DNA of 4,395 nt from a virus (taxonomy: Duplodnaviria > Heunggongvirae > Uroviricota > Caudoviricetes): the IMG/VR virus record IMGVR_UViG_2671180770_000027. The stretch is one strand, 5' to 3'. The position numbers and the translations under genes are program-made. The notes under the pieces are model-generated. The model worked only from the letters and a program-made list of their open reading frames with translations, did no database searches and was not told the origin of the DNA. Shown here piece after piece: positions 1,208-3,024 of the stretch. Position 1 is the stretch's first letter; every line of letters begins with the position of its first letter.

Positions 1208-1429
1208 ATGGCAGACATAATTGATTCAGCATCAGAAATTGAAGAATTACAGCGCAACACAGCAATAAAAATGCGCCGCCTGAACCACCAGGCTATATCT
1301 GCCACTCATTGTTGTGAGTGTGGCGATCCGATAGATGAACGAAGACGACTGGCCGTTCAGGGTTGTCGGACTTGTGCCAGTTGCCAGCAAGATCTGGAGC
1401 TTATCAGTAAACAGAGAGGTTCGAAGTGA
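1208..1429 (+). CDS. TraR/DksA-family C4 zinc-finger protein (73 aa), probably an RNA polymerase secondary-channel binding regulator
   Basis: The translation contains CxxC-X17-CxxC (CCEC…17 residues…CASC), the spacing diagnostic of the DksA/TraR zinc finger, in a 73-aa protein the same size as F-plasmid TraR. I recall lambda encoding a TraR homologue (Orf73) at this position, but cannot verify it here. Confidence 0.82.
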   Translation: MADIIDSASEIEELQRNTAIKMRRLNHQAISATHCCECGDPIDERRRLAVQGCRTCASCQQDLELISKQRGSK

Positions 1430-1582
1430 GCGAAATTAACTAGAAGCCAAAGATAAAATCATCGCTGAGCAGGAGAAAATCGCTAACGGAGAAAAGACAG
1501 TAAGTCAGTATATGAAAACCGCATGATATCATCAGATAAAAATCGGTCGTAAAGCGAAATATTAATACCAGAACAAACGAGT

Positions 1583-1604
1583 CGAGGTAAATTATATTAC
1601 CTCG
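1583..1604 (-). terminator. Perfect 8-bp inverted repeat (CGAGGTAA-ATTATA-TTACCTCG); possible transcript 3' end for the opposite-strand membrane gene
   Basis: Seen directly: cgaggtaa (1583-1590), loop attata, ttacctcg (1597-1604). It lies about 36 nt downstream of the minus-strand ORF stop (1640-1642). On the minus strand it is followed by ACTCGTTTGTTCT, which is T-rich but not a clean U-tract. Confidence 0.35.
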
Positions 1605-1639
1605 ATAAATTAACTAAAACTTGCCCGCTATATACTATA

Positions 1640-2242
1640 TCATTCAGTATCATCACGCGCGGTCTGTGCATATGTCACTACTGCACCTAATATATTAATT
1701 TTCTTTTCAACATAGATAATATTATCGTACTCATAATTGCCATACGGATAGCAAATGCGAATATTCTCATGTAGATCGGGGTCATCCACCTCAGCTCCAG
1801 AACAACTTTTTGAACTACCGGAAGTATACCGATACGGTGCAACGTAAGACGATGTCTCTCCAGGCAAAAAATAAGTTAGTGTCGTAAGGGGTATAATCAG
1901 AAAAAATCCAGCAAATATGCACATCCCTGCATAAACCTTAAGGTATGCTGACAGACTCTTCCAGCCGCTTTGTTTTACTATCCCCTTCTTAACCCAAAAC
2001 AGAGATAACAGAAAAGCTATTCCCATGCTAAACAGAATGTAATAGTGGGATATACTCTGATTAAGAAACGTGACCCTGTAGATATCTGCCCGCCACCAGA
2101 AGAAAAGGAAAATAAAGATCAGCCCTGAAACTGTCATGCAAATCAAATAAGGATACGAATCTTTTTTCATGTTTAGCGCCCATAAAATTTTTCCTGACCC
2201 GGACAAATTTACCATCCATTTTTTGCGCAGAAAATAGCTCAT
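1640..2242 (-). CDS. Opposite-strand accessory (moron) gene encoding a predicted integral membrane protein with three hydrophobic helices and a ~75-aa C-terminal domain; function unknown
   Basis: A 200-codon ORF on the minus strand inside an AT-rich island. Three hydrophobic segments are visible (YLICMTVSGLIFIFLFFWW; YYILFSMGIAFLLSLFWV; AGMCIFAGFFLIIPLTTLTYFL), with basic residues flanking them. It is the only ORF in the window opposed to the pL operon direction. The start is ambiguous (Met1, Met10 or Met25; none has a strong SD). I do not recognise the family. Confidence 0.7.
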   Translation of the reverse strand: MSYFLRKKWMVNLSGSGKILWALNMKKDSYPYLICMTVSGLIFIFLFFWWRADIYRVTFLNQSISHYYILFSMGIAFLLSLFWVKKGIVKQSGWKSLSAYLKVYAGMCIFAGFFLIIPLTTLTYFLPGETSSYVAPYRYTSGSSKSCSGAEVDDPDLHENIRICYPYGNYEYDNIIYVEKKINILGAVVTYAQTARDDTE

Positions 2243-2484
2243 TACTTACTGCACAATAATACACAAAATTGCGTAAATTTTTTGCATGGATTTTAGCTCT
2301 TTCAGCCGACATTTAAGGGGTAAATAGCATTTCCTAAAAGCAACTGCACCAACCCAACAGAATGGGCTACCGCTTACGTTGAGAGCAAAAAAGTGTATAG
2401 CAGCAATGAACAGCATCCTCACACTGACGAGGATTTCTTTTATCTGAACTCGCTACGGCGGGTTTTGTTTTATGGAGATGATAA

Positions 2485-2652
2485 ATGCACTTCCGAGTCA
2501 CAGGTGAATGGAATGGAGAACCATTCAACAGAGTTATCGAAGCCGAGAACATCAGCGACTGCTATGACCACTGGGTGCTGTGGGCGCAGATAGCACATGC
2601 AGACGTAACCAATATTCGAATTGAAGAACTGAAAGAACACCAAGCCGCCTGA
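2485..2652 (+). CDS. Small 55-aa ORF, a conserved-looking lambdoid early-left small protein (possibly lambda orf55-like)
   Basis: ATG at 2485 is preceded by GGAG (2474-2477) at 7-nt spacing, and the frame is open for 55 codons to the TGA at 2650-2652 (MHFRVTGEWNGEPFNRVIEAENISDCYDHWVLWAQIAHADVTNIRIEELKEHQAA). It is below the 60-aa cutoff of the ORF track. The overlapping 66-aa track ORF (2393..2593) is in another frame and lacks an SD. Confidence 0.65.
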   Translation: MHFRVTGEWNGEPFNRVIEAENISDCYDHWVLWAQIAHADVTNIRIEELKEHQAA

Positions 2653-2665
2653 TGGCGGTTTTTTT
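2645..2665 (+). terminator. Short GC hairpin followed by a T7 run; candidate weak intrinsic terminator or attenuator after the 55-aa ORF
   Basis: ccgcc (2645-2649), loop tgat, ggcgg (2654-2658), then ttttttt (2659-2665). The stem is only 5-6 bp, so strength is doubtful. An N-antiterminated pL transcript would read through. Confidence 0.4.
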
Positions 2666-2679
2666 ATTGGAGACAAGAA

Positions 2680-3024
2680 ATGTCAGATTTGGCTATGAAG
2701 GTTTTGAAATGGCAATCGACTGGCGATGTAGGCATCAGTAGCGCAACTCTTGCCTCAATCGCATGTGGACTGAAAAAGAATATCTATGGTCATAGCTTCG
2801 GTGCTCCACATGACGCAGCCGATTTCCGACGATGCGTTGCACTTGTTGAGCAGATTCCAGAAATCAGAGATTCATTCGACAAGGTTGCAAAGCGCGTTCC
2901 GGCATTCAAAGGAATCCTCAACGAATGGGATTCACTCGTTGCTCTGTTGAAGTCTGAAATGAAGACGTACGGGAACAAAGCACCAGAGACTTACAGAAGA
3001 ATCAGCGAGCTACGCAAGGACTAA
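2680..3024 (+). CDS. Hypothetical protein, 114 aa, function unknown (occupies the pre-xis slot)
   Basis: ATG at 2680 is preceded by GGAG (2671-2674) at 5-nt spacing. It is a clean 114-codon ORF ending in TAA at 3022-3024. The product is soluble with no hydrophobic segments and no motif I recognise. Confidence 0.75.
   Translation: MSDLAMKVLKWQSTGDVGISSATLASIACGLKKNIYGHSFGAPHDAADFRRCVALVEQIPEIRDSFDKVAKRVPAFKGILNEWDSLVALLKSEMKTYGNKAPETYRRISELRKD

What the first reader, a model, noticed from the sequence alone, without database searches (positions are those of the whole stretch)
1640..2242. Architecture and start-site ambiguity of the moron-encoded protein
The product has three hydrophobic helices with basic flanks (KKDSY before helix 1; KKGIVKQSGWK between helices 2 and 3). 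They are followed by a ~75-residue hydrophilic C-terminal domain rich in Tyr, Gly and Ser with two Cys (…SKSCSGAEVDDPDLHENIRICYPYGNYEYDNIIYVEKK…), which by the positive-inside rule would be periplasmic. Three in-frame Met codons (codons 1, 10 and 25) could start the protein, and none has a convincing SD. The only promoter-like element I can see upstream on the minus strand is a TATTAT -10-like hexamer (+ strand 2256-2261) without a well-spaced -35. The 83-codon ORF in another frame (2061..2312) overlaps the 5' end and is probably spurious.
Basis: seen in the sequence. Interest (0 to 1): 0.5.

Follow-up and report, generated by a model that had tools for sequence, protein, structure and literature searches.

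The report
Prophage membrane-protein moron, start site resolved
This is a real, widespread but uncharacterised prophage cargo gene for a small inner-membrane protein; comparison with relatives shows that it starts at the third methionine (176 residues, not 200), and the same gene-plus-promoter cassette also sits in the known anti-phage hotspot of P2-like prophages.

Summary
The minus-strand ORF 1640..2242 encodes three hydrophobic helices with basic flanks, followed by a ~77-residue C-terminal domain with two cysteines.

The start-site ambiguity can be resolved. All distant homologues (42-78% identity, 166-189 aa) begin at the equivalent of Met25. Eight non-lambdoid loci have an in-frame stop 1-18 codons upstream and no alternative start. 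The product is therefore most likely 176 aa (ATG at 2170). The database starts (Met1 in RefSeq and mEp332, TTG13 in phage 434) are probably wrong.

The best conserved promoter-like site is TTTTCT-17 nt-TGgTAAATT (2234-2206). It would place Met1 and Met10 upstream of the transcript.

The window is the pL arm of a phage 434/mEp332-like lambdoid. The gene lies in a 946-bp AT-rich replacement (1443-2388), present in 905 of 5426 complete E. coli genomes.

Homologues carrying the same ~125-nt upstream cassette lie between gpQ and gpA of P2-like prophages. This is the old/tin defence hotspot, where Rousset et al. 2022 list the family as untested "System #4, 3 TM" (470 occurrences).

There is no Pfam, PADLOC or structural relative, and no similarity to P22 SieA.

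The function is inferred only. The most likely role is a prophage-expressed exclusion or defence protein acting at the inner membrane. The gene is ordinary in kind but uncharacterised.

The parts
1443..2388 (-). The moron: a 946-bp AT-rich segment that replaces the ea22-like region of related lambdoid phages
   Evidence: Megablast homology with Stx and other lambdoid phages ends at window 1442 and resumes at 2389. GC is 0.34-0.41 inside against 0.46-0.52 outside. The full segment occurs in phages 434, 2B8 and mEp332 and in 905 of 5426 complete E. coli genomes.
1640..2170 (-). Most likely true coding sequence: 176 codons plus stop, starting at ATG 2170-2168 (Met25 of the 200-codon ORF)
   Evidence: All distant homologues start at this Met. 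Eight non-lambdoid loci have an in-frame stop 1-18 codons upstream and no alternative start.
2171..2242 (-). Codons 1-24 of the annotated 200-codon ORF. Most likely non-coding 5' regulatory DNA that holds the promoter, an operator-like palindrome and the 5'UTR
   Evidence: This stretch is conserved as DNA but not as a reading frame. In L013 ATG1 reads TCG and an in-frame TAA precedes Met25; L005 also has an in-frame TAA. Natural E. coli variants carry frameshifts here with the gene body intact (P0021, P0026, P0027). Amino-acid variable sites number 7 of 24 here against 21 of 176 in the body (Fisher p=0.05).
2206..2234 (-). Predicted promoter: -35 TTTTCT (2234-2229), 17-nt spacer, extended-10 TG (2214-2213), -10 TAAATT (2211-2206). 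The predicted TSS is ~2199
   Evidence: My own PWM scan (consensus frequencies taken from memory) ranks this site top within 220 nt upstream in the window, L013, L005, L004 and L018, and second in L010. It sits at the same distance from the ATG in each, -41 to -45. There is no experimental support.
2218..2235 (.). 18-bp near-palindrome ATTTTCTGCGCAAAAAAT overlapping the -35 and the spacer; a possible operator
   Evidence: the repeat finder reports it as I1. It is conserved in L013 (GTTTTCTGCGCAAAAAAC) and partly in L005.
2248..2277 (-). Three tandem 10-bp repeats (consensus aTTGTGCAnn; degenerate in the window).
   Evidence: Alignment A4. L005 has three clean copies at 10-nt spacing. Copy number varies: 3 in the window, L013 and L005; 2 in L004; 1 in L010; 0 in L018. 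The TTGY-N6-TTGY pattern is expected 1.1 times per window by chance.
2179..2181 (-). Weak Shine-Dalgarno remnant (GGG), 8 nt before ATG 2170
   Evidence: Homologues carry GGAG at the same position (L010 and L018).
2090..2149 (-). TM helix 1 (residues 8-27 of the 176-aa protein)
   Evidence: Hydropathy. AF2 helix 5-29.
1988..2047 (-). TM helix 2 (residues 42-61)
   Evidence: Hydropathy. AF2 helix 38-61.
1874..1945 (-). TM helix 3 (residues 76-99)
   Evidence: Hydropathy. AF2 helix 69-101.
1643..1873 (-). C-terminal five-stranded beta domain (residues 100-176), predicted periplasmic. The invariant Cys codons are at 1804-1802 and 1753-1751
1582..1605 (-). Hairpin 35 nt after the stop codon (9-bp stem, followed by CTCGTTTGTT); a weak candidate terminator
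   Evidence: Terminator scan. RNA fold z=-2.6. The stem is roughly kept in L013, with one compensatory change and one mismatch.
2246..2416 (-). 56-codon ORF annotated in phage 434 (CPT_434_35) and mEp332; probably not a gene
   Evidence: No PHROG, Pfam, NCBIfam or PADLOC hit. RefSeq PGAP does not call it. It overlaps the repeat region, and its 5' end runs into the tL4 hairpin. No equivalent ORF is present at any of the other loci, where the corresponding frame lacks a start or is cut by a stop.
2061..2312 (-). 83-codon overlapping ORF; spurious
   Evidence: No family hit. The frame carries stops in L005, L004, L010, L018, L014, L023 and L007.

Best explanation
**Setting.** The window is the pL arm of a phage 434/mEp332-like lambdoid prophage, running exo ... 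TraR-like gene | moron | ORF55, ORF114, xis, int. On the strand opposite to pL sits a self-contained 946-bp cassette (1443-2388).

**Gene and product.** The gene most likely starts at ATG 2170 (Met25 of the long ORF) and makes a 176-residue inner-membrane protein. The topology runs as follows:
- a short basic N-terminus in the cytoplasm;
- three transmembrane helices;
- a basic cytoplasmic loop between helices 2 and 3;
- a ~77-residue five-stranded beta domain in the periplasm, probably clamped by a disulfide between the two invariant cysteines.

**Expression.** The 24 upstream 'codons' are regulatory DNA. The cassette carries its own weak -35/extended -10 promoter (2234-2206), overlapped by a palindrome and preceded by 10-bp repeats. 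It can therefore be expressed from the repressed prophage independently of pL.

**Mobility and function.** The same promoter-plus-gene cassette moves between lambdoid prophages and the gpQ-gpA (old/tin) anti-phage hotspot of P2-like prophages. The most likely function is prophage-encoded protection of the lysogen at the envelope. The protein would use its periplasmic domain to interfere with genome delivery by superinfecting phages, working like P22 SieA or HK97 gp15 without being related to them.

**Shown.** Gene conservation, start-site conservation, domain architecture, cassette mobility and genomic contexts.

**Inferred.** Topology, disulfide, promoter and TSS, expression in lysogens, and the exclusion function.
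For: **Identity of the region.** 98.6-99.6% identity to phages 434, 2B8 and mEp332, with their annotations.

**Start site.**
- A 24-sequence alignment has every distant homologue beginning at Met25.
- The profile search of 1.84 billion representatives returns 61 hits. Nearly all full-length hits (166-189 aa) match from profile position 1 or 2.
- The upstream DNA is conserved, but the frame is closed in 8 loci.
- Frameshifted natural variants keep the gene body intact.

**Architecture.** AF2 pLDDT 87.6 for the whole protein and 88.7 for the C-domain. K/R bias fits N-in/C-out. The Cys pair is invariant.

**Promoter.** The top-scoring site lies at a conserved position in 5 lineages.

**Context.**
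- Homologues P0043, P0048, P0039 and P0054 lie between the portal gene and gpA in P2-like prophages of Salmonella, E. coli and Klebsiella.
- Rousset et al. 2022 (PMC9122126) define that locus as an anti-phage hotspot holding old and tin.
- Their Table S5B lists a protein 52% identical to ours (E=5e-57) as System #4, '3 TM', 470 occurrences.

**Prevalence.** The cassette is present in 905 of 5426 complete E. coli genomes.
Against: - No experiment bears on expression, topology or function.
- No PADLOC, Pfam or NCBIfam hit.
- Rousset et al. note that the P2 hotspot also carries non-defence cargo, such as partition systems and toxins. By motif search of their supplements, they did not test System #4.
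- The more distant homologues in Enterobacter, Klebsiella sp. R390 and Citrobacter are chromosomal, next to LysR, GGDEF, PTS or sensor-kinase genes, with no phage genes nearby. This hints at a role not tied to phages.
- The predicted promoter has a poor -35 (3 of 6), and the standard scan did not report it.
- The SD before Met25 is weak in this copy.
Confidence: 0.45

Rival explanations
1. The protein is a lysogenic-conversion or envelope factor unrelated to phage exclusion. Examples would be an orphan immunity protein against a membrane-acting bacteriocin or contact-dependent toxin, or a stress or colonisation factor. It would simply ride in prophage cargo slots.
For: Distant homologues are chromosomal in Enterobacter (between LysR and GGDEF genes), Klebsiella sp. 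R390 (PTS and LysR genes) and Citrobacter (next to a sensor kinase and tus), with no phage genes nearby. The P2 hotspot also carries non-defence cargo. No defence-database hit. Small 3-TM inner-membrane proteins are typical of bacteriocin immunity (my own knowledge).
Against: The closest clade (at least 52% identity) is found only in prophage accessory slots. Known pore-former immunity proteins lack a ~77-residue periplasmic beta domain (my own knowledge; not tested here).
Confidence: 0.3
2. The protein is an abortive-infection membrane effector that depolarises or permeabilises the inner membrane when a phage infects.
For: Transmembrane proteins in hotspot systems are often regarded as suicide effectors (Rousset et al. 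2022). In Klebsiella the gene neighbours a 790-aa AAA_16 protein and a 279-aa protein.
Against: It is usually a stand-alone gene (L005, L013 and the window itself). It has no sensor partner. A conserved folded periplasmic domain with a Cys pair is not typical of such effectors. The gene sits in 17% of E. coli genomes, apparently carrying its own promoter.
Confidence: 0.1
3. The annotated longer products are real: 200 aa from Met1 (RefSeq, mEp332), or about 188 aa from TTG13 (phage 434), or a form starting at Met10. In that case the lambdoid copy would have a lineage-specific N-terminal extension.
For: The frame is open for 25 codons upstream of Met25 in the window and in most E. coli copies. 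Gene callers choose these starts.
Against: No homologue outside the near-identical lambdoid copies has the extension. In L013, the closest P2-type relative (78% protein identity), ATG1 reads TCG and an in-frame TAA follows. Frameshift variants are tolerated here. No SD precedes these starts. Met1 and Met10 lie upstream of, or inside, the best promoter candidate.
Confidence: 0.07
4. The TTGT-N6-TTGT repeats at 2266-2253 are a genuine lambda-type CII site. They would drive a CII-activated minus-strand transcript during establishment of lysogeny. This would act like paQ as an antisense brake on pL-arm transcripts, and would also provide early expression of the membrane protein.
For: The curators of phage 434 annotated a CII site here. 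The pattern match is exact. The 10-bp periodicity of the repeats matches CII-site geometry (my own knowledge).
Against: The pattern is expected 1.1 times per window by chance. The repeats are clearest in P2-like prophages, and P2-like phages do not encode a lambda-type CII (my own knowledge; not checked in these loci). Copy number varies from 0 to 3. The spacing to any -10-like hexamer differs from that at pRE and pI (inference).
Confidence: 0.1

Closest known systems
Rousset et al. 2022 (PMC9122126), Table S5B, 'System #4' of the E. coli P2-like prophage hotspot between gpA and gpQ (single protein, no Pfam, '3 TM', 470 occurrences)
   Same: Same protein family: 52% identity over 168 residues, E=5e-57, with the same three TM helices and the same SKSCSGA...ICYPYG block. 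Closer relatives (71-78% identity) sit at the same P2 locus and share ~125 nt of upstream DNA with the window.
   Different: The window copy lies in a lambdoid prophage between the TraR-like gene and ORF55 of the pL arm, not in a P2 hotspot. The family has no name, no assigned function and, as far as the supplements show, no test.
P22 SieA (superinfection exclusion; Leavitt et al. 2024, PMC10883804)
   Same: Similar kind and size: a prophage-expressed protein of 162-164 aa, in the inner membrane, with three predicted TM helices, its own promoter, an uncertain start codon, and encoded on the strand opposite to its neighbours.
   Different: No sequence or profile similarity (hhalign probability 0.1%). 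The conserved SieA motif FxRYPxEAxxFNK is absent. SieA's conserved C-terminal motif is predicted to be cytoplasmic, whereas here the conserved domain is predicted to be periplasmic.
HK97 gp15 moron and T4 Imm/Sp (inner-membrane injection blockers)
   Same: The concept is the same: a small membrane protein made by the resident phage that blocks entry of incoming phage DNA. gp15 is also a classic moron (my own knowledge).
   Different: Not compared by sequence here. The architectures differ: gp15 has one TM helix and Imm has two (my own knowledge).
PHROG 1416 (unknown function)
   Same: Residues 113-200 match the whole 90-position profile, E=7e-51.
   Different: The PHROG covers only the end of TM3 plus the C-domain. 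It was therefore probably built from truncated gene calls or fragments. It carries no annotation.
DUF1093 / YxeA-like and OB/cold-shock-like small beta-barrels (PDB 3npp, 2k5q, 2ytv)

Membership tests
Moron (Juhala/Hendrix sense: an autonomous extra gene in a phage genome) | Present in some phages and absent from close relatives whose flanking genes are conserved | tested here: met
   Homology with Stx and other lambdoid phages stops at 1442 and resumes at 2389.
Moron (Juhala/Hendrix sense: an autonomous extra gene in a phage genome) | Base composition differs from the surrounding genome | tested here: met
   GC 0.34-0.41 inside against 0.46-0.52 in the flanks.
Moron (Juhala/Hendrix sense: an autonomous extra gene in a phage genome) | Own promoter and terminator, expressed from the prophage | tested here: inconclusive
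   A conserved extended -10 promoter candidate lies at 2234-2206, and a weak hairpin at 1605-1582. There are no transcript data.
P2-hotspot 'System #4' (3 TM) family of Rousset et al. 2022 | Sequence homology to the representative protein | tested here: met
   BLASTP 52% identity, E=5e-57.
P2-hotspot 'System #4' (3 TM) family of Rousset et al. 2022 | Located between gpA and gpQ of a P2-like prophage | tested here: not met
   The window copy is in a lambdoid pL arm. Homologues P0039, P0043, P0048 and P0054 do sit at the P2 locus.
P2-hotspot 'System #4' (3 TM) family of Rousset et al. 2022 | Anti-phage activity | not testable with these tools
   The family motif is absent from the paper's table of cloned systems; the search hits only Table S5B.
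P22 SieA superinfection-exclusion family | Sequence or profile similarity, and the motif FxRYPxEAxxFNK | tested here: not met
   hhalign probability 0.1%. The motif (described) is absent from the translated sequence.
P22 SieA superinfection-exclusion family | Inner-membrane protein of about 160-200 aa with three or four TM helices | tested here: met
   Three predicted TM helices in 176 aa. This is a prediction only.
Lambda CII-activated promoter (pRE, pI, paQ type) | TTGC-N6-TTGC straddling the -35, with a poor -10 at a fixed distance and CII dependence | tested here: inconclusive
   TTGT-N6-TTGT is present at 2266-2253, but 1.1 matches per window are expected by chance. The repeats are also conserved in P2-like prophages. 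CII dependence cannot be tested here.
DUF1093 / OB-like beta-barrel fold | Significant structural superposition | tested here: not met
Known anti-phage defence systems (PADLOC-DB v2) | HMM match to any component | tested here: not met
   No hit for the window protein at E<=1, and none for any of the 23 family members at E<=0.1.

The most novel reading that the evidence does not exclude
The family (P2-hotspot 'System #4') would be a new, very common single-gene superinfection-exclusion or defence protein. Its disulfide-bonded periplasmic beta domain would block phage genome delivery across the inner membrane. It would travel as a portable promoter-operator-gene cassette between unrelated temperate phage types (lambdoid and P2-like) and chromosomal islets. 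The cassette's 10-bp TTGTGCA repeats and palindrome would be read by an as yet unidentified, probably host-encoded, regulator.
Probability: 0.3. Interest if true: 0.55.

Novelty: new member of a known kind. Interest (0 to 1): 0.35.

Why it matters
**Annotation.** Public annotations of this gene differ in its start codon: RefSeq WP_000120065-type entries and mEp332 use Met1, while the phage 434 record uses TTG13. Both starts are probably too early. The gene is present in about one in six complete E. coli genomes. The neighbouring 56-codon 'membrane protein' in the 434 and mEp332 records is probably not a gene.

**Biology.** The analysis ties an unexplained gene of the classic phage 434 to the fourth most abundant entry in the Rousset et al. 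table of P2 anti-phage hotspot cargo, which appears never to have been tested. It also shows that gene and promoter move together as one cassette between phage families.

**Experiment.** This gives a cheap and well-defined test. Clone 1443-2388 and challenge it with a phage panel. The result could add a common new exclusion protein, or show that this abundant cargo does something else at the envelope.

Tried and rejected
- **Family scans.** Pfam, NCBIfam and PADLOC scans of the 200-aa and 56-aa products found nothing, apart from a sub-threshold DUF6057 hit at E=0.24.
- **Foldseek.** BFVD gave no hit with E<=0.001. The AFDB50 library was not available.
- **PDB sequence search with the family profile.** Nothing below E=0.2.
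- **Rfam on the whole window.** Nothing relevant.
- **P22 SieA homology.** Rejected; hhalign probability 0.1%.
- **P0124.** This 3074-aa repeat protein appeared in the HMM search. I rejected it as a spurious match of its Cys-containing repeats.
- **Standard promoter scan.** It did not report the conserved site, because the -35 matches only 3 of 6 positions. I therefore used a simple PWM with an extended -10 bonus.
- **Literature.** Searches for the accession numbers, for mEp332 and for phage 434 morons found no functional data. The Vassallo et al. 2022 supplements do not contain the family motif.
- **Cys-Cys distance.** I could not measure it, because model coordinates are not exposed.
Full report
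**1. What the window is**

The 4395-base window is the leftward (pL) arm of a lambdoid prophage, read in the direction of pL transcription. The stretch 1440-2480 is 99.6% identical to phage mEp332 and 98.6-98.7% identical to phages 2B8 and 434.

The annotated records give this gene order: exo, orf60a, orf63, two small ORFs, a TraR/DksA-like zinc-finger gene (window 1208-1429), the minus-strand gene of the finding, ORF55 (2485-2652), ORF114 (2680-3024), xis and int. In E. coli chromosomes the prophage sits at the lambda attachment site next to ybhC.

**2. The observation**

- ORF 1640..2242 (-) has 200 codons.
- In-frame ATGs lie at codons 1, 10 and 25 (window 2242, 2215, 2170), and a TTG at codon 13.
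- Hydropathy shows three hydrophobic blocks.
- AlphaFold2 with a 23-sequence alignment gives three long helices followed by five beta-strands, mean pLDDT 87.6.
- The C-terminal domain modelled alone has pLDDT 88.7.

Across 20 full-length homologues the mean K+R counts are 1.9 in the 7-residue N-terminus, 3.1 in the loop between helices 2 and 3, and 1.3 in loop 1. The positive-inside rule therefore puts the N-terminus and loop 2 in the cytoplasm, and loop 1 and the C-terminal domain in the periplasm.

The two cysteines are invariant in a 24-sequence alignment, within the conserved block CSGA..V..P.L...I.ICYP.G.Y. In the model they sit just before strand 2 and at the end of strand 3 of a beta-hairpin. 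That placement is compatible with a disulfide. I could not measure the distance, because coordinates are not exposed.

**3. The start site**

Read alone, the sequence is ambiguous, and the databases disagree. RefSeq and the mEp332 record use Met1. The curated 434 record uses TTG13. Comparison resolves the question.

- Every homologue below about 80% identity, from Salmonella, Klebsiella, Enterobacter, Cedecea and Citrobacter, is 166-189 aa long and begins at the methionine aligned with Met25, MKKDSYPYL.
- The exhaustive profile search of 1.84 billion representative proteins found only 61 relatives. Nearly all full-length hits match from profile position 1 or 2.
- In eight loci outside the lambdoid lineage, the frame upstream of that ATG is closed by a stop after 1-18 codons, with no alternative start.
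- In L013, the closest P2-type relative (78% protein identity), the DNA upstream is clearly homologous to the window. There ATG1 reads TCG, and an in-frame TAA lies between the Met10 and Met25 positions.
- Among near-identical E. coli copies there are variants with frameshifts inside codons 1-24 and an intact gene body: P0021, P0026 and P0027, seen on dozens of contigs.
- Amino-acid variable sites are denser in codons 1-24 (7 of 24) than in the rest (21 of 176; Fisher p=0.05).
- Before Met25 the window has only GGG (2181-2179). This lies exactly where more distant homologues carry GGAG, 8 nt from the ATG.

I conclude that the product is 176 aa, starting at 2170. I put this at about 0.9 confidence.

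**4. The upstream region**

About 125 nt upstream of ATG 2170 are conserved as DNA between the lambdoid window and P2-like prophages of E. coli and Salmonella. Three elements stand out.

*(i) A promoter-like site.* It reads -35 TTTTCT (2234-2229), a 17-nt spacer, TG (2214-2213), and -10 TAAATT (2211-2206).
- I scored it with a simple sigma-70 weight matrix that includes an extended -10 bonus. The consensus frequencies came from memory, so the scores are only relative.
- It is the best site within 220 nt upstream in the window, L013, L005, L004 and L018, and the second best in L010.
- It always lies 41-45 nt before the ATG.
- It predicts a TSS near 2199 and a ~28-nt leader.
- Met1 would lie upstream of the -35, and the ATG of Met10 supplies the TG of the extended -10.

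*(ii) An 18-bp near-palindrome.* ATTTTCTGCGCAAAAAAT (2235-2218) overlaps the -35 and the spacer. It is kept in L013. It looks like an operator.

*(iii) Three tandem 10-bp repeats.* The consensus is aTTGTGCAnn, at 2277-2248.
- They are clean in L005 and degenerate in the window.
- Copy number varies from 0 to 3 between lineages.

It aligns to CAGTAT and CACTAT in relatives, and it is not among the four best promoter candidates.

The same repeats are what the 434 curators marked as a CII site, TTGY-N6-TTGY. That pattern is expected 1.1 times per window by chance. Its conservation in P2-like prophages argues against a lambda-specific reading; that P2-like phages have no lambda-type CII is my own knowledge, not something checked in these loci.

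None of these elements has experimental support.

Downstream of the gene there is a 9-bp-stem hairpin at 1605-1582 with a poor T tract. It is roughly preserved in L013.

**5. Other ORFs**

The 83-codon ORF (2061-2312) and the 56-codon ORF (2246-2416) have no family hits. The 56-codon ORF is annotated as a membrane protein in the 434 and mEp332 records, but RefSeq does not call it.

The 83-codon frame is interrupted by stops in seven of the eight other loci. It stays open only in L013, which has no start codon at the equivalent position. No equivalent of the 56-codon ORF is present at any of the eight loci. The 56-codon ORF overlaps the repeat region, and its 5' end runs into the tL4 hairpin. 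Both ORFs are best treated as spurious.

**6. It is a moron, and a mobile one**

Homology with Stx and other lambdoid phages ends at 1442 and resumes at 2389. Those phages carry an ea22-like gene at this position. Its first five codons (GTG AGC GAA ATT AAC, 1427-1441) survive in the window and run into a TAG. The inserted or replacing segment is therefore 1443-2388.

GC is 0.34-0.41 there against 0.46-0.52 in the flanks. The segment is present, at 80% coverage or more, in 905 of 5426 complete E. coli genomes.

The closest homologues outside this lineage are P0039 (E. coli, 78%), P0043 (Salmonella, 71%), P0048 (Salmonella) and P0054 (Klebsiella). All lie between the portal gene and the gpA replication gene of P2-like prophages.

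Rousset et al. 2022 (PMC9122126) define this locus as an anti-phage hotspot; in P2 itself it holds old and tin. The family motif does not occur in their table of cloned systems, so the system appears not to have been tested.

More distant homologues (42-56% identity) in Enterobacter, Klebsiella sp. R390 and Citrobacter are chromosomal. They sit next to LysR, GGDEF, PTS or sensor-kinase genes, with no phage genes within 5 kb. The Citrobacter copy still carries the promoter-like element.

**7. What it is not**

- No Pfam, NCBIfam or PADLOC family.
- PHROG 1416 (unknown function) covers only residues 113-200.
- The family profile finds nothing among PDB sequences.
- BFVD gives nothing significant.
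- P22 SieA is the best functional analogy, but it shows no similarity (hhalign probability 0.1%), and its signature motif is absent. SieA is a prophage-expressed inner-membrane protein of 162-164 aa with three TM helices, its own promoter and an uncertain start codon.

**8. Most likely mechanism**

Shown:
- a conserved 176-aa gene with three TM helices and a conserved beta domain;
- a portable promoter-gene cassette;
- residence in accessory slots of two unrelated temperate phage families, one of which is an established defence hotspot.

Inferred:
- the protein is made in the lysogen from its own promoter while pL is repressed;
- it inserts N-in/C-out in the inner membrane;
- it uses the disulfide-stabilised periplasmic domain to interfere with genome delivery by incoming phages, working like SieA or HK97 gp15.

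My confidence in the exclusion or defence function is about 0.4.

The main rival, at about 0.3, is an envelope or immunity function unrelated to phages. The chromosomal homologues favour this, as does the mixed cargo of the P2 hotspot. An abortive-infection effector, a genuine longer product and a CII-driven antisense role are less likely.

**9. Verdict**

The start-site ambiguity is real for a single sequence but is resolved by comparison in favour of Met25. The proposed TATTAT -10 is not supported.

The gene is an ordinary kind of thing, a prophage moron encoding a small membrane protein. It belongs to an abundant family with no name and no assigned function, and public annotations probably place its start codon too early. 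Interest is modest. The value lies in the corrected gene model, the link to the P2 hotspot, and a simple decisive experiment.

Noticed in passing
window 1427-1530 (+): The first five codons of the ea22-like gene of Stx phages (GTG AGC GAA ATT AAC) survive and run into a TAG at 1442-1444. A different frame then reads EAKDKIIAEQEKIANGEKTVSQYMKTA*, which looks like the C-terminal remnant of another gene. A similar stretch also lies downstream of the homologue in the P2-like locus L013, so the mobile cassette may carry this fragment with it.
   Followed up: partly
L017 (JARKOR010000073.1, 3561 bp): A contig binned as a 'Candidatus Nanosynbacter' MAG carries this gene at 99% protein identity. Its 200 nt upstream are identical to the window. 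This is almost certainly E. coli prophage DNA contaminating the bin.
   Followed up: no
window 2680-3024 (+): ORF114 is present here, as in phage 434. It is absent from mEp332 and from the E. coli prophages examined, where ORF55 is followed directly by xis. The window is therefore a mosaic of 434-like and mEp332-like segments.
   Followed up: no
window 2411-2465 (+) and 2642-2661 (+): Plus-strand terminator-like hairpins lie just past the moron: tL4 of the old 434 record at 2411-2441, and a second one at 2446-2465. Another follows ORF55. In total the scan found seven terminator-like sites in 1430-2700, where shuffled sequences give 0.8.
   Followed up: partly
L018 (Citrobacter portucalensis) 5400-8100: The chromosomal homologue sits directly upstream of an RstB-like sensor kinase (followed by tus and fumC), at the position where E. 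coli has rstA (gene order from my own knowledge). No response-regulator ORF is visible there. The cassette may have displaced or disrupted rstA.
   Followed up: partly
L004, L010, L011 4100-4900: In several Salmonella P2-like prophages the homologue is preceded, on the same strand, by two ORFs of 81 (or 123) and 119 aa. The 81-aa and 119-aa ORFs of L004 have no Pfam hit. They are absent from L005 and L013, so they are not obligatory partners.
   Followed up: partly
window 2161-2170 (-), ATGAAAAAAG: A run of six A immediately after the start codon is a frameshift-prone site. Variants P0030 and P0032 read MGAKHEKDSYPYL, using the ATG four codons upstream in another frame. This could be a sequencing error or genuine slippage.
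   Followed up: no
window 2206-2214 (-) and homologous sites: The -10 region (TGGTAAATT here; GTGATAAATT in Salmonella) resembles the H-NS nucleation motif TCGATAAATT, which I recall from memory. Together with the AT-rich composition, this suggests the cassette may be silenced by H-NS.
   Followed up: no
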